DNA from: Torpedo marmorata
Taxonomy: Eukaryota
DNA: 64,000 nucleotides
NCBI GenBank assembly: GCA_977017645.1
Contig: OZ360219.1
Span: 7,936,001-8,000,000, forward strand
Direction: 5' to 3'
Shown here: positions 20,305 through 63,594 of the stretch, in pieces
Numbering within the stretch: the first letter of the stretch is position 1
How the letters are laid out: every line of letters starts with the position of its first letter
The notes under the pieces: model-generated
Databases searched by the model: none
What the model was told of the DNA's origin: nothing
What the model saw: only the letters and a program-made list of their open reading frames with translations
Program-made: the position numbers and the translations under genes

Positions 20305-20868
<564 letters not shown>

Positions 20869-32094: not shown

Positions 32095-32977
32095 CCGTAT
32101 TTGACGGCATATAGGACCCACTGGCATATAGGACCCCGCCCCCATTTTTAGCATTAGATTTTAGGAAAAATTTGTTTTAGTGTATTTACCTTCACAGCAG
32201 CAACACGTCCTCCTGCCCACCACACGCTGAGGCTCAGGCTGCTTCCCCCCACCGTCCAAGCGCCGATTGATTGACAGGACCAGCGGGTGCGCAAGAGTGT
32301 GAGGAAGAGAAGCCAGGACAACGGGCAGGGCCCAGACCCACCGTCGCGGGGAGCAGACGATCAATTGCTTGCTTTGAGGGGAACGCTGGGCCTAGGTGAT
32401 CAGGCTCCACGCTGAGCCTTTGTTCGACGCGCACGGCTCCCCCGAACAGATTGAATGAGGCGCGGGGGTGGGTGGCAGTGAGTGAGCGGCCTGTTGAGCT
32501 GAGCTTGACAGGCCGCTCGCTCACTGCCACCCACCCCCGCGCCTCATTCAATTTGCTCGGGGGTCCGTGCTCATCGAACAAAGCCTGATCATCGAGGCCC
32601 AGTGCTCCCCTCAAAGCACTGTGGGAGAGAGGGAGGGAGGGAGAGGGCGAGCAGGCGGGCGGGAAGGAGGGAGAGAGCGAGCCTTCTTACCGGGGGAAGT
32701 GAGCGGAGGCAGTGGCGGCGGCGACTCTGGAAAGCACGTGCCACGCAAGGGAAGGTGGTCCGCGAAGCTGCAGGCCCACTTCCTGGACAGCCGCAGCACC
32801 TCCGCGGGCTTCTTGAAGCTGGGTGAGTAGTTTGAGCGCTTTACTCCTGTCACCAACTTGTGGATGAAAGCTTCAACTTGGTGCCCAAAATGGCGGCACC
32901 AAAATGTCACCTTTGCATATAAGACCCGGGGTGGTTTTTGGGATAAAAAGGGGGGTCTTATATGCTGTCAAATACGG
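32095..32977. mobile_element. Non-autonomous Tc1/mariner (pogo/Tigger-type) element, 883 bp
   Basis: TIRs CCGTATTTGACGGCATATAGGACCC and GGGTCTTATATGCTGTCAAATACGG, TA at 32093-32094 and 32978-32979, GC-rich non-coding interior. Confidence 0.85.
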
Positions 32978-34778: not shown

Positions 34779-35638
34779 TGTAAGAGCCGTAGGCTCAATA
34801 ACCATATAACAATTACAGCACGGAAACAGGCCATTAGGCCCTTCTAGTCCGCACTGAACCAAACACTCCTCTCTAGTCCCACCCGCCTGCACCCTGCCCA
34901 TAACCCTCCACTTCATTCTCATCCATATACCTGTCCAACTTTTTCTTAAATAATAAAATTGACTCTGCCACCACTACTTCTCCCGGAAGCTCATTCCACA
35001 CCGCTACCACTCTCTGAGTAAAGAAGTTCCCCCTCATGTTACCTTTAAACCTCTGCCCCTTAACTTACCTTAATCGCGGTGCTCCGGTGCCTCGACGGGT
35101 TATGGAGAAGTTGCAACGTTTGTAGGCCGTCCTCAGCCTGTTTGTGCTCTGCGCATGCGCTGGAGTGCCAACGGGCGCATGCGCAGTCTGAAATTGACGT
35201 CATTGTGCGCGGTGTAGTGGGAGATGTAGTATGCGTGGTGGAGCGTGAGCAGTGGAATAGGAACATGGAGCATGCGCGAATCGGAAGGAATAGGAAAAAG
35301 ATGGTGACGTAGGAGGGTGAGTGAGATCGCCATATCTTTTATTGACCATTTCATACATCGTTTCATAGATCATTTCATCGAGCTTTTAAACTAGTTTATT
35401 TGTGGTTTAAAGTAGTTTAATTGAACATCTGAATACAGTCAAAAGGAATCATTTAAAGGAACTCATACATCATTTTCAAGAACTGTTTATTTTTAAGTCA
35501 TTGAAGATTACTGCAAGTCACGTGTGTAAATAAAGTTTTTGAACATATTGGACTTTGTTGGTAAATTAATTGAAACGCGTCAAAGACAAGTATCTCACTT
35601 AGCCTCCAGGTGACTATTGTTGGATCGAAGTCACCACA
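34779..35638 (+). repeat. 5' LTR (TG...CA), interrupted by a LINE fragment
   Basis: Aligns with 40225-40834 once the insert is removed; about 16 substitutions by my count plus 2 indels. Confidence 0.92.
34803..35060 (-). mobile_element. 5'-truncated CR1-type LINE 3' end inserted in the 5' LTR
   Basis: Absent from the 3' LTR and bounded by TAAC (34799-34802 and 35061-35064). ORF 34725..34922 shows CR1 3' sequence. Confidence 0.85.
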
Positions 35639-36090
35639 TTATAGTCAATAAAGTGGCTGTTTGGAACAGAAAATTGAAGGAAAGAAGATAGAATAATCTC
35701 TCTGTGCTTTGGACTGATATTTAAAATAAATGGTGGCCATCTTGAAGATGCCTCGAGTTGGGGGCAGTTTGTAATCCACATCCATCTGCCATGAGTAACA
35801 TCCAGAGAGGGATTTAAAGCTTCAAATCTTATAGTAAAGTGTACTATAAATACGTTGGAGAAACCATTTTTGGAAAATCAGCTATATTATTGACGGATGT
35901 TGTGGTTGAAACTCGTTTGTGAATAGCAGCACATTACAGTCATTTGAAGTGGTAGGCATAAGTCTGTGGACTCCTGTGTATCTTTGGCAAGTAAGAACAC
36001 AGATTGGAATTGCTGCCGCTGGTCCATTGGGGACTGTTGATTTGGCTAGTGTTGTGTATGCTTGAAGGACAGAGGAACAAGACAAGTAAA

Positions 36091-38010
36091 ATGGCCGCAG
36101 CAGCCTCCGATACAGCAGCCACTGATGTATCAGCAACTGACGCAGCAACCGCTGATGTTGCTGTTGAGGACCAACGTATTGAAGACATGAAGGTTGCGGA
36201 TATTAAAGAAGAATTGAAGCGACTGAAACTAGATTTAAGTGGAAATAAAAAGGTTCTTATCGCAAGATTGAAGCTGGCAAAGGATAAACAAGATGATAAC
36301 TTGGAAATGGCTGAAATTGTGTCACCAAATGATGAAGATATTGAAGAGGTTGAAGATGCAAAGGATATACAATTCGAATTGGATAAAGCGGTAAGTATGA
36401 AGACAACATATGAACTACAGGATGAAATTCAAGCAAGTGACAGTGTCTCAAATGTTGAAAGCAGGAGAAGCAAACGAACTTCTGGTTTGAGCTCCAGAGT
36501 TTCTCGTACTTCAAGTTCTGCATCGTCACGTACAAGGAATGATGTTAAATTGGTCGCTCTTCTTGCACAACAAAGATTTCTTAAGGATAAACATGTTTTA
36601 GAAGAACCGGAGGAGGAACTAAGAAAGAGACAAGAGCAGCTAAGAAAGAGAAAAGAGCAGCATGATCTGGAAACAGATATTGCTATTGCCATAGCCAGAA
36701 AGAAAGCAATAGAAGGCTGAATGGTATCTGGTGCTCGAAATAAATTATCTAAAGTATCTGATAATAAAAGGTCATATTTAAAAAAAGTCACAGGAAAAGA
36801 AACCAACCAAAAGGATAGATATTTTAGAACCAAGGATACAAGACTTGCATATACAAGGACAAACCTTTCAAGAGCATTATCGTATCGAGTCACATGTAAC
36901 AGTGGTAACATCTGAAAGCAAAGCTGCGGCTTGGGTTCAGTCGAACGATGCAGCTTCCTTGTTATTTGAGTCAAGCAACAGAAATATGGAAGAAACTACA
37001 TCAGTGAGGTTTCCAGATGCATTACCTGCAACAAGAGACGGTGAACAGAGCAATGTATTGTCATCCAAGGAAATACAAAATGAAATTGCTGCATCATTGT
37101 TTCAGTTACAGTCTCTCTCTTCTTTACCCAAGAAAGAGATACAAACTTTTGATGGTGATCCACTTCAGTATCAATCATTTATGAGATCTTTCAAACGTAA
37201 TATTGAAAATAAATGTCAAGATCGTGATGAATGTCTTTATTATTTGGAAATGTTCACAAAGGGACATCCAAAAGAACTGGTAAAGAGTTGTAAACAAATG
37301 TCTTCAGAAAGAGGATTAGACAAAGCTAAGGCTTTACTGGAACAATATTTTGGCAACAAGCATCGAATTGCTTTAGCTTATATAGATAAAGCTCTTAAAT
37401 GGACATCAATAAAACAAAATGATGTAAAGGCTCTGCAAGAATATACTCTGTTTTTAAGAGGATGTTGTAATGCTATGGAAGATATCGATAATATTCGTGA
37501 GCTTGAAGTGCCTAGTAATATGCGAATCATCTTAGAAAAATTACCTTACAAGTTATGGGATAGATGGAGAAATTTGGCTTGTGATTTACAAGTAAATTAC
37601 GGTTGAAAAACTACCTTAAAGGATTTGGTAAATTTTCTTGAACAACAGGTGTATGTTGAAACAGATTCACTATTTGGAAATGCCAGAGATAATTCAATGG
37701 GCAAAGATGTAAGGAGGTCTAACTCACAGCCTAGTCCGAAATTAAAAAGGAGTACTTTTGCTACTAATGTGTCAGTTATAAGTAAAGAAAAGGACAAAGT
37801 AAATAAGGAAAAGGAAAGTTTGCCTGATGAAAAGAGTTGTTTGTTCTGTAAAGGTGGACATGCTTTGGAAATGTGTTTACGATTGGAAAAGAAGGAACAT
37901 AAGGAGAAGATCACTTTCTTGAAGGAAAATGGAATATGTTTTAGCTGTCTGTGTAAAGGGCACATCAGTAAAACTGCGAGAAGCGAATTAATTGTAACAT
38001 ATGCAATTTG
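36091..38010 (+). pseudogene. Disrupted BEL/Pao gag: SAP domain, coiled coil, DUF1759-like capsid region, Cys/His knuckles
   Basis: SAP motif MKVADIKEELKRLKLDLSGNKKVLIARL; LPKKEIQTFDGDPLQYQSF; CLFCKGGHALEMC and CFSCLCKGH. Split across ORFs 36004, 36721, 36845 and 37625 by a stop and frameshifts. Confidence 0.85.
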
Positions 38011-39582
38011 AAACATCCTAGAATTTTGCATATCCATAACAGAAACAAGAAATTGGAAAAGGAGCAAACAGAAACAAAGGAAACAACAGAAAATAATGTT
38101 ATAACCTCGGTTCAGACAAGTGGTCTTACTGGGGCCGGGGTGAATAACTGCAAACTTTCGATAGTGCCTGTACAAGTCAAGACCAAGAAAGGGGATGCAA
38201 TAGTAAAAACATATGCATTTCTAGACCCAGGCAGCACTGCATCTTTTTGCACGGAAGGATTAATGAATAAACTTGATATTCAAGGAAGAAAATCAAGAAT
38301 TATGTTAAAAACCATGGGACAAGAAAAGGTCGTTGAAACCAGCATTGTTTCAGGCTTAGAGGTTGCTGGATTATATGACAAAATTTTTTGTGATCTTCTA
38401 AGTTTATATACTCAGAAGACTATGCCTGTGCATGAAGGAAATATTCCTCATCAAAAGGATATCCATCATTTAGCTTATCTGTGGAAGATTTATTTACCTG
38501 AAATTAATTCTGAGATAGAAATGCTGATTGGTTCAGATGTGCCAAAGATTTTGGAACCACTAGAAGTAATACAGAGTAGAAGGAATGGACCTTACGCTAT
38601 TAGAACCAAGCTTGGTTGGACAATCAATGGACCACTGCAAAGAAATAATGATATTGCTCAGGAACAGTTAGTGATAAATATTAATAGAATTTCGGTTGTG
38701 AAAGTTGAAGAGTTAAGCGAAGAGCAAAAAACTGTGAATAAGAAAATCACTTTTGAAGAAAAGAAAACAGATCAATGTGAAAATAAATCAAGGGTATTTA
38801 ATACAACATTGAAGGAATTATTTTCACCAAAAATGGATGAAAGTGAAGTATTAGAAGATGTTGCAAATAATACTATTGATTGTTCATGTGTAATTGAATC
38901 AGATACAGGAATAAAACAAGTGATTGAAAACAAATCTGAACGTAGATTTTGTAGTTCAGAGATTACAACAAACAAAGCTAATGAAGAAATATTGCAATGT
39001 GATGTAAAACTGGAGAACACAGAAAATTGTGCTGATGGAATAAAGAATAATGTGAATGATAATTTAATGCAATTGAATTCAGAGAACAAAATGTTGAAAG
39101 GGGAATTGGAAATATTAGATAATCATGAAAACAGTAAACAGAAAGATTTAATTGTAAGTAAAATTCGCAAAGTCAGAAAATGGAAGAAAAGAATAACTGC
39201 TGAAGAAATGAATACAGTTATTGAAGAAAGAGATTCAGCATTATCAAAATGTAAAAGGTTGGAGGAAGAGATTAATATTTTGAAAGGGAACAAGTTATTG
39301 GTTATTAACACAAAACAGTTGACTTTAAAAAACAATCAAGAATGTAAATTGAATGTTCAACAATTAACAATGCAGAAAGAATGTGATATTGCATTTCAGA
39401 AATGTAACAAGCAAGATGAAGAAATTAAAAAATTTCAAGTTTGCCACAGTAAGATTGACAATGGAAATATCAATGTATCACATGATATTTTGACTTCAGA
39501 TCAAATTATTAATTTCTCGGAAAGAACTGAGACTGAATTGAAAGTTGCAAAATTGGATTTGGAATTGCAGGAAAGGCAATAG
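38008..39582 (+). CDS. BEL aspartic protease fused in frame to a foreign coiled-coil segment containing a MIPOL1-like region
   Basis: TYAFLDPGSTASF protease motif and PYAIRTKLGWTINGP. After ~38716 the sequence is non-retroelement; 39151-39450 (RITAEEMNTVIEERDSALSKCKRLEEE...) resembles MIPOL1 as I recall it. Confidence 0.75.
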   Translation: MKHPRILHIHNRNKKLEKEQTETKETTENNVITSVQTSGLTGAGVNNCKLSIVPVQVKTKKGDAIVKTYAFLDPGSTASFCTEGLMNKLDIQGRKSRIMLKTMGQEKVVETSIVSGLEVAGLYDKIFCDLLSLYTQKTMPVHEGNIPHQKDIHHLAYLWKIYLPEINSEIEMLIGSDVPKILEPLEVIQSRRNGPYAIRTKLGWTINGPLQRNNDIAQEQLVININRISVVKVEELSEEQKTVNKKITFEEKKTDQCENKSRVFNTTLKELFSPKMDESEVLEDVANNTIDCSCVIESDTGIKQVIENKSERRFCSSEITTNKANEEILQCDVKLENTENCADGIKNNVNDNLMQLNSENKMLKGELEILDNHENSKQKDLIVSKIRKVRKWKKRITAEEMNTVIEERDSALSKCKRLEEEINILKGNKLLVINTKQLTLKNNQECKLNVQQLTMQKECDIAFQKCNKQDEEIKKFQVCHSKIDNGNINVSHDILTSDQIINFSERTETELKVAKLDLELQERQ

Positions 39583-39834
39583 AGACCAGAGTGGTTAAAG
39601 AGACCTGTTTATTAAAATCAAAAGGATCAGATAAATATTCAAATTCTAGTTCTAAGAGTTTAAATTCTTCACATGAGAAGTGGAATGCTGAAGAAAGGAA
39701 TAAAGTGAAACGACATGCTGAAGAAGTGCCTCGTGTTAAATTCAAAAGAAAAACTGTATCTATTTTGTCTGAGGAAGATTTGAGGTTTACTGGTTGACAT
39801 TTTAACTCAAAGATTCTGGAAATAAAATAACTTT

Positions 39835-40019
39835 AAAGAGACATTGTAATTATAATGGATGATTCAGCTCCAAGAAATTCCTGGTTACTAGGAAAAATTA
39901 TTGAGACTATTCAAGACAAAAAGGGACTTGTGCGTCAAGTGCGAATTAAAACTAAGACTGGTTTTCTAAACAGACCTATTAACAAGGTCTGTCTTTTGTT
40001 GGAGACGGAGGAACTTTGA
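39835..40019 (+). pseudogene. BEL integrase C-terminal remnant (DUF5641-like)
   Basis: Manual translation: DIVIIMDDSAPRNSWLLGKIIETIQDKKGLVRQVRIKTKTGFLNRPINKVCLLLETEEL*. Confidence 0.85.
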
Positions 40020-40224
40020 TTAATATAAACTGACTTTATTTGTTGTTGTATACTTCACAGGTTACAGACTTTTGTTGATTCAGAGTTATGGTAAACTCTG
40101 GTTTTATGAAGAAGGAAGAAAGAAGATTTGTGTATTGTTTGAATGTTATGGTTATTGTTATTTATAATTTATAGTGTAATTATTATTTAAGACATTGCGT
40201 CTAATTATAATAATTAGGGGCTGG

Positions 40225-40834
40225 TGTAAGAGCCGTAGGCTCAATAACTTACCTTAATAGCGGTGCTCCGATGCCTCGACGGGTTATGGAGAAGTTGCGA
40301 TGTTTGTAGGCCATCCTCGGCCTGTTTGTGCTCTGCGCATGTACTGGAGTGCCGACGGGCGCATGCGCAGTCTGAAATTGACGTCATTGTGCGCGGTGTA
40401 GTGTGGGAGATGTAGTATGCGCGGTGGAGCGTGCGCAGTGGAATAGGAACATGGAGCATGCGCGAATCGGAAGGAATAGGAAAAAGATGGCGACGTAGGA
40501 GGGTGAGTGAGATCGCCATATCTTTTATTGACCGTTTCATACATAATTTCATAGCGTTTCATAGATCATTTCATCGAGCTTTTAAACTAGTTTATTTGTG
40601 GTTTAAAGTAGTTTAATTGAACATCTGAATACAGTCAAAAGGAATCATTTAAAGGAACTCATACATCATTTTCAAGAACTGTTTATTTTTAAGTCATTGA
40701 AGATTACTGCAAGTCACGTGTGTAAATAAAGTTTTTGAACATATTGGACTTTGTTGGTAAATTAATTGAAACGCGTCAAAGACAAGTATCTCACTTAGCC
40801 TCCAAGTGACTATTGTTGGATCGAAGTCACTATA
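40225..40834 (+). repeat. 3' LTR, 610 bp (terminal CA mutated to TA)
   Basis: Follows the PPT and is followed by TSD CATTC. Confidence 0.92.
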
Positions 40835-40849
40835 CATTCCATCCTGCAT

Positions 40850-42582: not shown

Positions 42583-42785
42583 AAACAAGAAGTCTGTAGA
42601 TGCCAGAGGACTGGAGCAATTCACAAAGAAGTGCTGGAGGAACTCAGCAGGTCATGCAACATCCATCGAGAGCAATAGGCAGTCAAATCTTTCTGAAGAA
42701 GAGCTCAGGCCCAAAGCGTCGACTCAATTGCTTTCCATGGACGCTGCATGACCTGCTGACTTCCTCCAGCATTTTTATTTGTGTA
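42583..42785. mobile_element. Short Penelope-derived element with inverted halves
   Basis: gtgctggaggaactcagcaggtcatgca ... tgcatgacctgctgacttcctccagcat. Confidence 0.65.
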
Positions 42786-48543: not shown

Positions 48544-50846
48544 TACAGTGACTTCAATCCAACAAATAGTCACTTGGAGGCTAGGTGAGATATTTGTTCT
48601 TGACGCGTTTCAATTAATTTACGAACAAAGTCCAATATGTTCATAATGTTTATTAACACATGATGACTTGTAGCAATCTTCAATAACTTAAATATCTTCT
48701 TTAATGAAATATAAACAATTCTTGATAACGATGCTTAATAACGATTCTTCAAAATGTCTATAAACTTCCTTCAAATGATTCCTTTAACAATCATTTAAAC
48801 GTTACTTTAAATGTTACTTTAAACATGGCTTTAAACGTCCTTTATACGGTCAATGAAAGATATGACAATCTCACTCACCCTCTTCTAAGCCGCCATATTT
48901 GATACTACCACTTCTCCGATTCACGCATGCTCTAACCGCACATACTCCTGTCACTTCCCCACTGCGCATGCGCCCGTCAGCACTCTCGCGCATGCGCAGA
49001 GTATTCAATAGGCCTAGCATGGCTTAATAATCTCCGTGTCTCCTCCGAAACCCACTGAGACCATCGGAACGCCGCGATTACGGTAAGTAACCAAGCCTAC
49101 GGCTATTACACCGGCCCCTAATTATTATAATTAGACGCAATGTCTTAAATAATAATTACACAATCAATTACAAATAACAGTAACCATATAACATTCAAAC
49201 AATATACAAATGTTCTTTCTTCGCAAGACCAGAGTTTACCATAACTCTGGATCAACAAAAGTCCGTAATCTGTGTAGTATACAACAACAACATAAAGTCA
49301 GTTTGTATTTATCAAAGTTCTTTTATCTCCAGAATCTTTAAGTTAAAACGTCGACCAGTAAACCTCAAATGTTCCTCAGACAAAATAGATAGTTTTTATT
49401 TTGAATTTAACACAAGGTACTTCTTCAGCATGTCGTTTCACTTTATTTCTTTCTTCAGCATCCCACTTCTCATGTGAAGAATTTAAACTCTTAGAACCAG
49501 AATTTGAATATTTATCTGATCCTCTCGATTTTAATAAACAAGTCTCTTTAACCACTGTGGTTTCTATTGCCTTTTCCTACAATTCCAAATCCAATTTTGC
49601 AACTTTCAATTCAGTCTCAGTTCCTTCCGAGAAATTAATAACTTAATCTGAAGTGAAAATATTATGCGATACATTGGTACTTCTGTTGTCAACCCTGCTG
49701 TGATAAACTTGAAATTTTAAAATTTCTTCATCTTGCTTGTTACATTGCTGCAATGCAATATCACTTTCTTTCAACATTGTTAGTAGCTGAACATTCAATT
49801 TACATTCTTGATTGTTTTCTATAATCAACTGTTTTGTGTTATTAACCAATAACTTGTTCTCTTTCAAAATATTAATCTCTTCCTCCAACCTTTTACATTT
49901 TGATAATGCTAAATATCTTTCTTCAATAACTGTATTTATTTCTTCAGCAGTTATTGTTTTCTTCCACTTTCTGACTTTGCGAATTTTACTTACAATTAAA
50001 TCTTTCTGTTTAATGTTTTCATGATTATCCAATACTTCCAATTCCCCTTTCAACATTTTTTTCTCTGAATTCAATTGCATTAAATTATCATTCACATTCT
50101 TCTTTATTCCATCAGCACAATTTTCTGCGTTCAACAGTTTTACATCACATTGCAACATTTCTTCATTGACTTTGTCTGCTGTAACCTCAGAACAACAAAA
50201 TCTACTTTCAAATTTGTTCTCAGTCACTTGTTTTATTCCTGTCTCTGATTCAATTACACAGGAATAATCACTAGTATTATTTGCAATATCTTCTAATACT
50301 TCATTTTCATCCATTTCTGATGAACACAATTCCTTCAATGTTGTTTTAAATACCTTTGATTTATTTTCACATTGATCTGTTTTCTTTTCTTCAAAAGTGA
50401 CTTTCTTATTCACAGTCTTTTGCTCTTCCCTTAACTCATCAACTTTCACAACAGAAATCCTGTTGATATTTATCGCTAACTGTTCCTGTGCAATATCATT
50501 ATTTCTTTATAATAGTCCATTGATTGTCCAACCAAGCTTGGTTCTAACAGCGTAAGGTTCATTCCCTCTACTCCGTATTATTTCCAGTGGTTCCAAAACC
50601 TTTGGTACATCTGAACCAATCAGCATTTCTATCTCAGAGTTAACTTCAGGTAGATAAACCTTCCACAGATAAGACAAATGATGGAAATCATTTTGATGCG
50701 CAATGTTTCCTTCGTGCACAGGCATAGTCTTCTGAGTATATAAACTTGGAAGATCATAACATTTTTTGTCATCCAATCCAGCAACCTCTAAGCCTGAAAC
50801 AATGCTGGTTTCAACGACCTTTTCTTGTCACATGGTTTTCAACATA
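48544..50846 (-). mobile_element. Second, 5'-truncated copy of the BEL/Pao element with the same foreign insert (3' LTR 48544-49110)
   Basis: ORFs 49643..50449 and 50507..50776 are colinear with ORF 38008..39582. PPT AATTAGGGGCCGG on the minus strand; LTR ends match copy 1. Confidence 0.92.
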
Positions 50847-51310
50847 CCATATATTTCGGCATATAAGTCGACCAGCAGATAAGTTGACCCCCTTTTTCAG
50901 CCTCATTTTAATGGTATTATTGTATATCCGGGGTATAAGTCGACCCCCAATTTTAAGGCTGTCCGGGCCTCCCAGCAACAACCCAAAATTTGTTACAACA
51001 CCCCAATCGCCAAGTAACAAAGCTGTAAATTAAGCAAGTAAGTAAAAAAAACCGTAAAAAAAACCTTTGCTTCTGGCCGGGAAGATGCAGGTGCGGCGAC
51101 GTCTTTCTCCTGAGCAGGTGCGGGGAGCTCATTCTCCCGAGCAGGTGCGGCGACGTCTTTCTCCTGAGCAGGTGCGGGGAGCTTGTTCTCCCGAGCAGGA
51201 GCGGCGACCTCGTTCTCCTGGGTAGGAGCGGCGACCTCAGGCTCCCGGTAGGAGCGGCGACCTCGTTCTCCCGGGCAGGAGCGGCGACCTCATTCTCCCG
51301 GGCAGGTGCA
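50847..51310. mobile_element. Truncated pogo/Tigger-type non-autonomous element with a GC-rich minisatellite
   Basis: TA then CCATATATTTCGGCATATAAGTCGACC, related to the TIR at 32095. ~27-bp tandem units (GAGCAGGTGCGGCGACGTCTTTCTCCT and variants) at ~51085-51310. No second TIR. Confidence 0.65.
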
Positions 51311-56869: not shown

Positions 56870-57660
56870 TCTCCCGACAAAATCCTTGTAAATTTTCTCT
56901 GCACTTTCAATCTTCTTAATATCTTTCCCATAGGCAGGTGACCAAAACTGCACACAATTCTCCAAATGTGGCCTCAATTCTGTCTTATACAACTTCACCA
57001 TAACATTCCAACTCCTGTACTCAATACTTTGATTTATCAAGGCCTACATGCCCAAAGCTCTCTTGACGGCCCCAATCTACCTGTGACGCCACTTTCAATG
57101 AATTATGTATCTGTATTCTCAGACCCCCCTGTTCAACTGCACTCCACATTGCCCTACCATTTACGGTTTAAGACCTACCTAGGTTTGTCCTCCCAAGGTG
57201 CAACACCTCACCTTTCTCTGCATTAAGTTCCATTTATCATTTTGCAGCCCATTTTTCAAGCTGGTCCAGATCCTGCTGCAAGCTTTGATAGCCTTCCTCG
57301 CTGTCCACTACACCCCCAATCTTAGTGTCATTTGCAAATTTGCTGATTCAATTTACTGCATTATCATCCAGATTATTTATTTAGATTACAAACAACAATG
57401 GACCCAGCACTGAGGCACACCACAAGTCACAGGCCTCCAGTCAGAGAGGCAATCATCTCCTACCTCTCTCTGGCTTCTAGAAAACCAATATCTAACCAAA
57501 TTTACTACCTCTTCCTGAATACCGAGTGACTGAACCTTCCAGACCAACCTCCGATTGGGCACCTTATCAAAGGCCTTACGAAAGTCTATGTCGACAATAT
57601 CCACAACCTTTCCTTCATCAAATTTCCCGGCAACCTCCTTAAAAACCTCCATTAGATAGA
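56870..57660 (-). mobile_element. CR1 RT fragment
   Basis: VDIVDIDFRKAFDKVP...WRPVTCGVPQ, with KFANDTK on the minus strand near 57320-57340. Confidence 0.85.
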
Positions 57661-60654: not shown

Positions 60655-60855
60655 AATGCAATGCACAAATGTGCTGGATAAGCTCAGCAGGGCACGTGGC
60701 ATCCATAGGAAGTAAAAGGTAATCATGTTTCAGGCCGAGGCCTGAAACATTGGTTGCCCTTTATTTTCCATGGATGCTGTGTGACCTGCTGTGTTTCTCT
60801 AGCACATTTGTGCATTGCACTCGACCCCAGCAAATGCATATTTTCTTTTTAAACA
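60655..60855. mobile_element. Palindromic short Penelope-derived element
   Basis: tgcaatgcacaaatgtgct...tgtttcaggcc|g|aggcctgaaaca...agcacatttgtgcattgca. Confidence 0.7.
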
Positions 60856-61266: not shown

Positions 61267-62055
61267 TCACTTGGAGTTGCGCGTGCCACAGCTTGTTGGC
61301 TGGTTTAGTGGAATTTTTCCAGACTCTGTAAACTTAAGGACAAATCGGTGTGTTGTGGTGGTAAATTTAATTTTGGAAGAAAATAGGGAGGGCAGGGACG
61401 AGGGGGAATGACTTTTAATCGGTTGTAGTTCCAACGCTTGTGTGTTTTAAATGGAAGATTCAGCTATTTAAATTGAAGCTCTCATCATAAGATGATTTTG
61501 TGTGGATATGTATCAGATTTGGTGGAATAAGCCAATCAATTAAGAGGATTTTAGTCAATATCATATTTGGGTCATGTCAGTTTCAATCTTTAAAGCTGTT
61601 CTATGCTTTACCACTCTTTTGGGTTAGTTTTGCGATTTCGCTGTTCATTTTGGAGAGAATGGGTGAATTAATTCTAAATGCACACTCCCCGCTCTCCTCC
61701 CTTCACCCTCACTCTCTCGTTGACGCCATTTTTCTCTGTGGACGCTGCCCAAGCATGAGGCCCCTCCAGCTTTTCCCAGGCAGCTGGACTGCCCGTGTTC
61801 CCCCTCCCTGCCCGCCCACCGGCTGCTCACCTTGATCCACGGCTCGTCGTTCGCTCCGCTCGGATCCACCATGACGAACCAAGAACCCCTGACCCTGGAC
61901 AGCACGCCCCCCTCTGGCTGCCAGTGGAAGCGCAGAGAATCCTCAGCACAAACCACGGCACGGGGAAGACCCTTCGGCCCGCTGTATTCGTGCTGTCTGA
62001 AGACCACGTTCTGCACTCTATGGTCTTCCATCTCATTTCAAGAGTTTATCTAACT

Positions 62056-62216
62056 CAGTGGTTCTCAACATTTTTCCACTCACATACCACCTTAAATAAT
62101 GCTGTACTAACCACAGAGCACCTGTGACATCCTATACCATAGAATAGATGCTCTGTGGTTAGTAAGGGATTATTTAGGTGGTATGTAAGTGGAAAAATAA
62201 AGGTTGAGAACCATTG
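62056..62216. mobile_element. hAT (Charlie-like) MITE
   Basis: TIRs CAGTGGTTCTCAAC and GTTGAGAACCATTG; 8-bp TSD ATCTAACT/ATCTAAAT (7/8 match). Confidence 0.85.
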
Positions 62217-62555
62217 ATCTAAATACATCTGACACGGAGAAAGATCCTGCCTCCACCAGCTCGTCCAGAAGCCAACAGTGGAGCATCTTCCAACATAGTT
62301 CTCTTATACACGCTGCTTACACTGTCAACGGCCCGGGTGGCAATATCCCAGTGTGGAGAGGGGTGCATGAGGAGGGGAGGGTTTGGGCCGGTAGTGGGGA
62401 GCCTTTTTGCCGTAGTAGTTTGTAAATGCATGCATGATGAGCCGAACTCTGCAACAGGAGGCAGACGCCGCAGACCTCAGGCTCAGACTTGCGCGTGCTT
62501 TTTGCAAACGCGCGGCATGAGCATTGATTGAGCGACTAGAGAAGTACGACTACAC

Positions 62556-63229
62556 CAGTGGTTTTCAAACTGCCCCCCTAAACTCACATTCCACCTTAAG
62601 CAATCCCTATGCCATAAGTGCTCTGTGATTAGTAAGGGATTGCTTAAGGTGGTATGTGAGTGAAAAGGAAAGGTTGAGAACCACTGCTCCAGACCCAATT
62701 GTTACTGAAATAATTTACTTGAGAAAAATTGTCATTGGCCCGTTTCCTTTGGAGTTATGAAACCGTGCACATAACGAGTCAATTAGGTACGATTAAAACA
62801 GTGGTTTTCAAACTTTTTCTTTCCACTCACATACCACCTTAAGTAATCCCTTACTAATCATAGAGCTCTTATGGCATAGGAATTGCTTAAGGTGGAATGT
62901 GAGTTTAGGGGGGCAGTTTGAAAACCACTGATATAACTTGTCTTCATGATATTTTATTATGCACGTTATGTTATGTACTAGTACCAAGTACAACATTATA
63001 CATATTAGTGTATTCCAGTGGTTTCATAACTCCAAAAGAAATGGGCCAATGACAATTTTTCTCAAGCAAAATATTTCAGTAACAATTGAGTCTAGAGTAG
63101 TGGTTCTCAACCTTCCCTTCCCACTCACATACCACCTTAAGCAAACTCTGACTAATCACAAAGTACTTATGGCATAGGGATTTGCTTAAAGTGGAATGTG
63201 AGTTTAGGGGGGCAGTTTGAAAACCACTG
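62556..63229. mobile_element. Composite cluster of hAT MITE modules (62556-62686, 62799-62930, ~63098-63229) forming large inverted repeats
   Basis: Three ~130-bp palindromic modules with CAGTGGTT(T/C)TCAA ends; 62556-62765 is inverted at 63016-63229. Confidence 0.8.
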
Positions 63230-63594
63230 AGTTATATGAATCAATTATAACAGACCTTTTATTCCATATGATAGAATCATTAAAACATAACACTACTACA
63301 GCACATAAAACAGGCATGATAGAACCATGGATAGAACCATTAAACCATAGAACGATCACTTCAGCACTGAAAGGCCATGATAGATCCATAGATAGAACCA
63401 TTAGGGCAGCAAAAGCATGGGGACACCAGCAGTGGTTAGTGGACGTTGTACAACAACAAGCCACACACAATTTGACTTGAAATACCCCCGCCTTTCAACC
63501 ATTCAGCGACCATTGCAATTTGCAAACTCTGGGTACAATACAATTTCCAGAAACTGTTCTGTCGTTCATAATTTAAACAACCTGAATAAAATAA

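What the first reader, a model, noticed from the sequence alone, without database searches (positions are those of the whole stretch)
49643..50449. Independent, diverged second copy keeps the captured segment open and gap-free
Seen: the minus-strand copy has the same insert at the same junction and is colinear over ~268 codons with no stop or indel (roughly 80% aa identity by eye). Its LTR interior differs markedly from copy 1. The MIPOL1-like part is 49697-49996, and some of its residues are closer to recalled MIPOL1 (ENNQE, VYHS). The insert is as A-rich as the rest of the element. Inference: the capture predates the subfamily split, the chimera has kept replicating, and the cargo may be under purifying selection. 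Two copies within 15 kb suggest a high copy number.
Basis: partly seen in the sequence, partly recalled or inferred. Interest (0 to 1): 0.72.

Follow-up and report, generated by a model that had tools for sequence, protein, structure and literature searches.

The report
Retrotransposon carrying BRCA1 and circular-RNA fragments
A jumping gene in a ray's genome has swapped its copying enzymes for scraps of two host genes, BRCA1 and MIPOL1; the MIPOL1 scrap has its exons joined tail-to-head as in a circular RNA, and the hybrid has spread to very many copies while the captured protein sequence drifts freely.

Summary
The colinear open stretch is real (268 codons, 81% amino-acid identity, no indel), but it is not one MIPOL1 insert and its amino acids are not conserved. 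Both copies belong to a non-autonomous BEL/Pao LTR retrotransposon whose RT, RNase H and integrase core are replaced by host-derived pieces, in frame behind the protease. These are a BRCA1 fragment (E 9.8e-19), MIPOL1 residues 454-554, then MIPOL1 residues 295-319 and 349-371. The tail-to-head MIPOL1 joint falls on the codon where host isoforms place an exon end and an upstream exon start: the mark of a back-spliced circular RNA. The cargo groups with electric-ray (Narcine) MIPOL1 and shares its one-codon deletion. Between the copies dN/dS is 0.9-1.1 on the cargo and 0.30-0.38 on the protease. Copy 2 is 5'-truncated, with stops on both sides of the open stretch. Contigs of four runs cover the whole chimera, 142,470 of them in one run, so the family is large. 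The lack of stops over a long cargo branch (P about 0.02) hints at selection for an open frame only. LTR-mediated capture and circRNA retrocopies are known; this combination and scale were not found in my searches.

The parts
50450..50846 (-). Copy 2: 3' part of the BEL/Pao aspartic protease region; element is 5'-truncated at 50846; in-frame stops at 50830-50828 and 50509-50507
   Evidence: 91% identical to copy 1 38301-38697; the copy 1 frame has a weak DUF1758 match, E 0.03, below cut-off; dN/dS 0.30-0.38
50000..50425 (-). Copy 2: captured BRCA1 fragment (skate BRCA1 residues ~201-349, extension to ~354 by eye), in frame with the protease
   Evidence: phmmer E 9.8e-19 among 1.84 billion proteins (copy 1 query); P0040 named BRCA1 homolog of Rhinoraja with RING and BRCT domains; 52% identity over 150 columns for copy 2
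49697..50002 (-). Copy 2: captured MIPOL1 core, Narcine X1 residues ~454-554; crosses the host exon border after residue 522 without an intron
49697..49699 (-). Tail-to-head MIPOL1 joint: Ser codon at which host residue 554 (exon end) is joined to host residue 295 (upstream exon start)
   Evidence: breakpoint score peaks at offset 0/+1 in both copies; exon borders inferred from isoforms
49625..49699 (-). Copy 2: MIPOL1 residues 295-319, out of order; stop at 49645-49643
   Evidence: 14 of 25 identical, score 70 against shuffle maximum 33, 0 of 300 shuffles reach it
49550..49618 (-). Copy 2: MIPOL1 residues 349-371 after an in-frame loss of 27 codons; stop at 49579-49577
   Evidence: 18 of 23 identical, score 81 against shuffle maximum 39, 0 of 300 shuffles
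49391..49549 (-). Copy 2: further segment of unknown origin, in the same frame
   Evidence: 90% identical to copy 1; no match
48544..49119 (-). Copy 2: polypurine-tract-like run and 3' LTR (TG start at 49110); the 183 bases that hold the integrase tail in copy 1 are absent upstream, after 49321
35061..35638 (+). Copy 1: 5' LTR, first ~20 bases missing
   Evidence: 14 substitutions in 574 bases and 2 gap openings against the 3' LTR
35995..38011 (+). Copy 1: gag region (SAP, DUF1759), broken into three open stretches by stops and frame changes
   Evidence: SAP E 6.5e-10, DUF1759 E 7.9e-7; ORF list
37972..39582 (+). Copy 1: 536-codon open frame joining end of gag, protease, BRCA1 piece (38707-~39147), MIPOL1 core (39145-39450) and the out-of-order MIPOL1 blocks (39448-39522, 39529-39570)
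39840..40019 (+). Copy 1: C-terminal tail of BEL/Pao integrase (DUF5641, model positions 42-94)
   Evidence: E 4.6e-13
40216..40836 (+). Copy 1: polypurine-tract-like run and 3' LTR (TG at 40225, CA at 40836)

Best explanation
A non-autonomous BEL/Pao LTR retrotransposon family of electric-ray-lineage batoids. During reverse transcription of an ancestral element the enzyme switched templates onto co-packaged host RNAs, replacing RT, RNase H and the integrase core with a BRCA1 piece, a MIPOL1 piece and one more unidentified piece (shown: anatomy and donors; inferred: template switching). The MIPOL1 template was a circular RNA spanning residues 295-554: copying ran from residue ~371 back to 295, on across the back-splice joint, and from 554 back to ~454 (shown: order and joint position; inferred: the circle). 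The chimera kept both LTRs, gag and protease, stayed under purifying selection on the protease, and was amplified to a very large family, using RT and integrase of an autonomous partner (shown: selection, abundance; inferred: partner). The cargo is a passenger whose amino acids drift neutrally. Its frame was probably kept open because translating the long frame helps the RNA be stable or packaged in cis (inferred, about even odds). Copy 2 is a dead, 5'-truncated insertion of a diverged subfamily.
For: BEL/Pao domains flank the cargo: DUF1759, SAP, DUF5641; LTR pair 97.6% identical in aligned bases. BRCA1 donor; MIPOL1 donor. Out-of-order blocks each beat 300 of 300 shuffles; the breakpoint peaks on the shared Ser codon; after it the linear host sequence matches 1 of 23 residues and the upstream exon 12 of 23 (copy 2). 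Isoforms place borders at both sides: after 553 in Narcine X3, Pristiophorus X3 and X4, chimpanzee X10 and X20, macaque X12; at 294/295 a one-Ser isoform pair in Narcine, Pristiophorus and Heterodontus and a read-through in a skate protein. A random jump would hit borders at both ends with P 0.001-0.004, assuming 8-14 borders. No MIPOL1 sequence from outside 295-554 was found in the element. dN/dS cargo 0.90-1.09, protease 0.30-0.38. Cargo is sister to Narcine (97/93) with path 0.36 against 0.024 for the host gene. 142,470 contigs of run X1 and 831-1,214 of three other runs lie on 3 kb, all 30 of 30 bins covered in each run. Expected stops under full neutrality 3.3-5.2, none seen in the 251-codon core.
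Against: Exon borders come from protein isoforms of relatives, not from the host's DNA. No circular MIPOL1 RNA was shown in any ray. Exon ends share a few letters, so a template jump on linear mRNA could also favour them. dN/dS rests on two copies and 68 differences, so the interval is wide (0.43-1.62 or 0.77-2.72 by method) and includes mild constraint. The family-level site test was not significant (segregating sites: cargo 1 synonymous, 6 not; protease 5 and 6; P 0.32; 28 sites of the 207 that passed the filter). The open-frame signal is post hoc: the stretch was picked because it is open, and between the two copies alone P is 0.06. No autonomous partner was seen. Contig depth is not a copy number, and X1 may be the window's own sample.
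Confidence: 0.72

Rival explanations
1. Same capture, but the tail-to-head MIPOL1 joint came from a linear source: a template jump between two places of linear MIPOL1 mRNA using a few shared letters at exon junctions, a trans-spliced RNA, or a host allele with tandemly duplicated exons.
For: Both borders lie inside a codon read as Ser or Arg, so they share letters (inferred). Template switches in this class use short shared stretches (Tan 2016, passages). Dong 2016 warns that non-colinear joints can arise otherwise.
Against: Joint exact to the codon on both sides; chance 0.001-0.004. All MIPOL1 pieces lie inside one possible circle. None of the six Narcine isoforms shows repeated exons.
Confidence: 0.15
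2. One reading: the cargo encodes a functional, conserved protein domain (for example a MIPOL1 coiled coil or a BRCA1 decoy that helps the element).
For: No stop or indel in 268 codons; junctions in frame; no indel at 25% or more listed between 38698 and 39570 in four runs; the MIPOL1 core alone gives 0.73-0.86.
Against: dN/dS not different from 1 in any part (P 0.56-0.93); 23/22/23 by codon position; cargo path about 15 times the host's; the BRCA1 piece lies outside RING and BRCT; copy 2 cannot make the fusion.
Confidence: 0.08
3. The open frame is pure chance and nothing acts on the cargo; the family spread only through its LTRs, gag and protease. (This differs from the best explanation only in its last step.)
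For: P(no stop) 0.06 for 68 neutral substitutions; P 0.05 for the longest-run statistic; post hoc choice of the stretch.
Against: Adding the long stem lowers P to 0.006-0.036; the protease-BRCA1 and BRCA1-MIPOL1 junctions and the 27-codon loss are all in frame (1 in 27 by chance, my arithmetic).
Confidence: 0.35
4. The two copies arose by local duplication, or the cargo is a processed pseudogene inserted by a LINE into a resident LTR element.
For: The copies are under 8 kb apart; LINE remnants surround copy 2 (RVT_1).
Against: Opposite strands, no shared flanks, LTR more diverged than interior; cargo replaces element sequence rather than adding to it, with no poly(A) tract seen; the protease shows selection since the split; very many variant contigs.
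Confidence: 0.03

Closest known systems
LTR-mediated retrocopies (Tan et al. 2016, PMC5131818; passages and section 8 read), including mosquito BEL18_AG and multi-gene chimeras; maize Bs1
   Same: Partial host mRNA pieces from two or more genes replace the middle of an LTR retrotransposon, in sense orientation, and the chimera moves on as a non-autonomous element.
   Different: Here a cartilaginous fish; the pieces are fused in frame to a protease still under selection; one piece has back-splice order (the word 'circular' does not occur in that paper's main text); Bs1 has one to five copies, this family far more.
circRNA-derived pseudogenes (Dong et al. 2016, PMC4897178; main text read): 33 high-confidence mouse circRFWD2 copies
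   Same: Non-colinear exon-exon joint; sequence confined to the exons of the circle; LTR sequence in the flanks; repeated copies.
   Different: There the mechanism is called mysterious and LTRs are only enriched nearby. Here the circle-derived piece sits inside a recognisable element between protease and integrase tail, beside a second gene's fragment, in one frame.
Mouse IAP 1-delta-1 elements (review PMC6466679, passages; the primary paper was not held)
   Same: Non-autonomous internal-deletion derivative with an open fusion frame that is very successful; the fusion is reported to act in cis.
   Different: IAP fuses its own gag and pol; here the extension is host-derived, and a cis effect is only inferred.
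BEL/Pao LTR retrotransposons (domain order recalled; Pfam matches)
   Same: LTRs, polypurine-tract-like run, DUF1759 gag, protease, DUF5641 integrase tail.
   Different: No RT, RNase H (Peptidase_A17) or integrase core.

Membership tests
BEL/Pao LTR retrotransposon (derivative) | Paired LTRs with a polypurine tract before the 3' LTR | tested here: met
   Copy 1 LTR pair, 14 substitutions in 574 bases; purine run before TG in both copies
BEL/Pao LTR retrotransposon (derivative) | BEL-type gag (DUF1759), protease (DUF1758) and integrase tail (DUF5641) in this order | tested here: met
   DUF1759 E 7.9e-7 and DUF5641 E 4.6e-13 pass cut-off; DUF1758 only E 0.03, below cut-off
Autonomous BEL/Pao element | RT, RNase H and integrase core | tested here: not met
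   No such match in the four long frames of copy 1; the space between protease and integrase tail is filled by cargo
BEL/Pao LTR retrotransposon (derivative) | Target-site duplication and primer-binding site | tested here: inconclusive
   Both copies lack their 5' end, so no duplication can be read; no clear tRNA primer site by eye after the 5' LTR
LTR-mediated retrocopy | Host sequence of spliced-RNA origin flanked by discontinuous element sequence | tested here: met
   MIPOL1 core crosses the border after residue 522 without an intron; protease before, integrase tail after
LTR-mediated retrocopy | Short shared letters at the switch points | not testable with these tools
   Neither host mRNA DNA sequence nor the autonomous parent was available
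circRNA-derived retrocopy | Non-colinear joint at an exon end and an upstream exon start | tested here: met
   at codon resolution, from protein isoforms of relatives
circRNA-derived retrocopy | Sequence confined to exons of the circle | tested here: met
   All MIPOL1 matches in the element lie within residues 295-554; one low-identity (20%) match to the host N-terminus overlaps the BRCA1 piece and was set aside
circRNA-derived retrocopy | The parent circular RNA exists in the host | not testable with these tools
   Only contigs were served, no raw RNA reads
Functional retrogene or domesticated cargo | dN/dS well below 1 on the captured sequence | tested here: not met
   0.90-1.09

The most novel reading that the evidence does not exclude
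A circular RNA was packaged and copied by a BEL/Pao retrotransposon, fused in frame with a BRCA1 fragment behind a working gag-protease, and the chimera became a major repeat of electric-ray genomes, kept open by selection on translation itself rather than on the protein. It would be a fossil record of an ancient back-splice event and a direct view of how circRNAs enter genomes; thousands of transcribed BRCA1- and MIPOL1-like copies could also feed small-RNA silencing back onto the host genes.
Probability: 0.35. Interest if true: 0.8.

Novelty: new variant of a known kind. Interest (0 to 1): 0.62.

Why it matters
Dong et al. 2016 left open how circular RNAs are retrotransposed. This element shows a circle-type joint inside an LTR retrotransposon, between protease and integrase tail, which points to template switching in the particle and can be tested by looking for the same joint in ray RNA. 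A very large family with neutral cargo and selected protease side by side allows a clean test of selection on an open frame as against selection on protein sequence. In practice, thousands of BRCA1- and MIPOL1-like fragments will disturb annotation, read mapping and circRNA calling in these genomes.

Tried and rejected
No whole genome is held, so copies could not be counted or their ends inspected. The segment after the MIPOL1 blocks stayed unidentified: Atlas best score 0.79, below any useful level; 0 of 38 candidates scored; no Pfam match; no match among the 118 proteins held. No fused gag-MIPOL1 or BRCA1-MIPOL1 protein appeared among 31 + 6 + 40 hits; weak evidence, as length limits apply. 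Expression: no RNA holder listed; run X3 is only guessed to be RNA, so nothing is claimed. The tblastn extension of MIPOL1 into the 5' half of the insert was rejected once BRCA1 matched it better. A weak MIPOL1-like hit at 57534-57653 (E 0.018-0.3) was treated as chance. The copy-2-type 183-base loss was not among the 15 joints shown of 70; two similar losses (39834 to 40041 or 40046) were. The synonymous test on family-wide sites was not significant. Host MIPOL1 or BRCA1 contigs were not recognisable. No stingray or guitarfish MIPOL1 was identified among my proteins, so the capture is dated only as after the split from skates. Earlier findings of the scan: nothing in 3 look-ups. Literature: searches (0 papers) gave no listing that describes this element; I saw listings only, apart from the four papers cited. 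Supplementary tables of Tan 2016 and Dong 2016 were not opened and may list comparable cases. No structure prediction was run, as it would not decide the question.

Full report
Setting. The window is from a cartilaginous fish: the closest host proteins are from rays and sharks. It holds two copies of one element. Copy 1 (35061-40836, plus strand) has two LTRs that differ at 14 of 574 aligned bases, a gag region with SAP and DUF1759, a protease region with a weak DUF1758 match and a DUF5641 integrase tail at 39840-40019. That domain set marks BEL/Pao elements (recalled). No RT, RNase H or integrase core was found. Copy 2 (50846-48544, minus strand) starts inside the protease, lacks the 183 bases with the integrase tail, and ends in one LTR.

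The observation. From 50449 to 49646 copy 2 is colinear with copy 1 over 268 codons, 81.0% identical in amino acids and 91.5% in bases, without stop or gap. Its LTR differs from copy 1's at 19.6% of 530 aligned bases with 23 gap openings, and the flanks share nothing. So the copies are separate insertions of diverged subfamilies. But the open stretch is bounded by stops: copy 2 has four in 423 codons (50830, 50509, 49645, 49579), two of them inside captured sequence. The insert is more A-rich than gag and protease (45.8% against about 37%).

Two donors. The search of 1.84 billion representatives with copy 1's insert gave 40 hits; 39 matched mainly the MIPOL1-like part and one, P0040, matched residues 4-150 at E 9.8e-19. 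P0040 is the BRCA1 homolog of the skate Rhinoraja, with RING and BRCT domains. Copy 2 matches its residues 201-349 at 52%, a part outside those domains. The next 102 codons match MIPOL1, best that of Narcine bancroftii (69 of 102 for copy 2, 68 of 102 for copy 1). Both copies align to Narcine without a gap, whereas all full-length shark, skate and mammal proteins in the list need a one-residue gap at the same place. In a 12-row tree the two copies form a clade (100/100) sister to Narcine (97/93). The capture thus happened after the split from skates, probably in the electric-ray lineage; stingrays and guitarfishes were not in my sample.

Scrambled order. After host residue 554 the element does not go on with 555. 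It goes on with residues 295-319 and then, after an in-frame loss of 27 codons, 349-371. Each block beats all 300 shuffles in both copies. Scoring every breakpoint from -20 to +24 puts the maximum on one Ser codon in both copies; beyond it the linear host sequence matches 1 of 23 residues and the upstream exon 12 of 23 in copy 2 (0 and 9 of 23 in copy 1).

The joint lies on exon borders. Comparing isoforms within six groups (sequences): sequences diverge right after residue 553 in Narcine X3, Pristiophorus X3 and X4, chimpanzee X10 and X20 and macaque X12. At 294/295, Narcine, Pristiophorus and Heterodontus each have an isoform pair that differs by one Ser, the usual mark of tandem splice acceptors (recalled), and one skate protein reads on into unrelated sequence there. 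The element keeps that Ser. A third border, after residue 522, is crossed without an intron, so the source was spliced RNA. A random jump would meet borders within one codon at both ends with P 0.001-0.004 if there are 8-14 borders (the number of borders is assumed). This meets the criterion of Dong et al. 2016 for circRNA-derived copies (PMC4897178, main text read). The limits: borders are inferred from proteins of relatives, and no circular RNA was seen.

Selection. Maximum-likelihood codon models give dN/dS 0.90, 1.09 and 1.03 for the cargo (P against 1: 0.74-0.92), 0.95-1.17 for the BRCA1 part, 0.73-0.86 for the MIPOL1 core (P 0.56-0.77), and 0.30-0.38 for 130 protease codons (P 0.001-0.007). 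Counting methods agree (0.79-1.35 against 0.27-0.40), and the synonymous share differs between the regions (P 0.013). The path from the Narcine node to a copy is about 0.36 changes per site, against 0.024 for the host gene. So the protease has worked since the split and the cargo's amino acids have not been conserved. The intervals are wide, and a test on 28 family-wide sites was not significant (P 0.32).

The open frame. For 68 neutral substitutions the chance of no stop is 0.06-0.07. Adding the stem of the MIPOL1 part raises the expected number of stops to 3.3-5.2 and lowers the chance to 0.006-0.036; if the BRCA1 part is as old, to 0.0003-0.005 (that age is assumed). Three junctions are in frame, and no indel at 25% or more is listed between 38698 and 39570 in four runs. 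I read this as moderate evidence, weakened by post hoc choice, that replicating lineages kept the frame open. A precedent is mouse IAP 1-delta-1, whose fusion frame is reported to act in cis (review PMC6466679, passages). Escape from decay of RNAs with long 3' tails is another possible reason (recalled, untested).

Abundance. Fourteen runs from 8 studies hold part of copy 2; I laid 4 of the 14 on copy 1, 37301-40300. Run X1 gave 142,470 contigs, with summed depth 0.97-4.6 million in all 30 bins against 19.7-34.3 for its eight listed long pieces; X2-X4, each under another organism code, gave 1,214, 1,007 and 831 contigs and also covered 30 of 30 bins. The tool states that such depth is no copy number. 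My inference: even allowing a 31-fold overcount from overlapping short contigs, over a thousand copies remain. X1 may be the window's own sample. No listed contig spans the whole stretch.

Mechanism. Shown: element anatomy, two donors, scrambled order at inferred exon borders, selected protease, neutral cargo, large family. Inferred: template switching onto co-packaged host RNAs (the model of Tan et al. 2016, PMC5131818, passages and section 8); a circular MIPOL1 template; supply of RT and integrase by a partner; selection for translation through the cargo.

Novelty. LTR-mediated capture of several genes is known in animals, once with a BEL element, and circRNA-derived copies with LTR flanks are known in mouse. 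My nine paper searches showed no listing for this element, for BRCA1 capture in a shark or ray, or for a back-splice joint inside a gag-protease frame; most subscription papers are not in the library and supplements were not read. Verdict: a new variant of a known kind. Interest 0.62.

Noticed in passing
window 20305-20868 (+): Last coding exon of a paired-type homeobox gene with an OAR motif; it reads like PITX2 (name recalled). Copy 1 lies about 14 kb downstream. No other MIPOL1 exons were found in the window.
   Followed up: partly
window 49549-49391 (-) and 39597-39794 (+): A segment of about 55-65 codons after the MIPOL1 blocks, shared by both copies and open, with no match anywhere; possibly a third captured gene.
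   Followed up: yes
window 48544-49110 versus 40225-40836: LTR interiors differ more than twice as much as the coding interior (19.6% plus 23 gaps against 8.5%), with conserved ends; suggests LTR exchange or fast promoter turnover between subfamilies.
   Followed up: partly
window 50847-50950: Copy 2 begins at a TA right after sequence that looks like the end of a pogo/Tigger-type DNA transposon (recalled); this may explain the 5' truncation.
   Followed up: no
window 51678-50953 and 48609-47714 (-): Pieces of a non-LTR retrotransposon (RVT_1; Tx1/L1-like by recall) lie on both sides of copy 2, with the middle missing; a short tandem repeat sits at about 51089-51309.
   Followed up: no
window 62047-63230, 32370-32618, 42629-42774, 60657-60819: Long imperfect palindromes and inverted repeats in the self-comparison, probably MITE-like elements.
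   Followed up: no
window 39834-40046 (run X1): Several independent losses of the integrase tail appear among family contigs, similar but not identical to the loss in copy 2; the tail seems dispensable.
   Followed up: no
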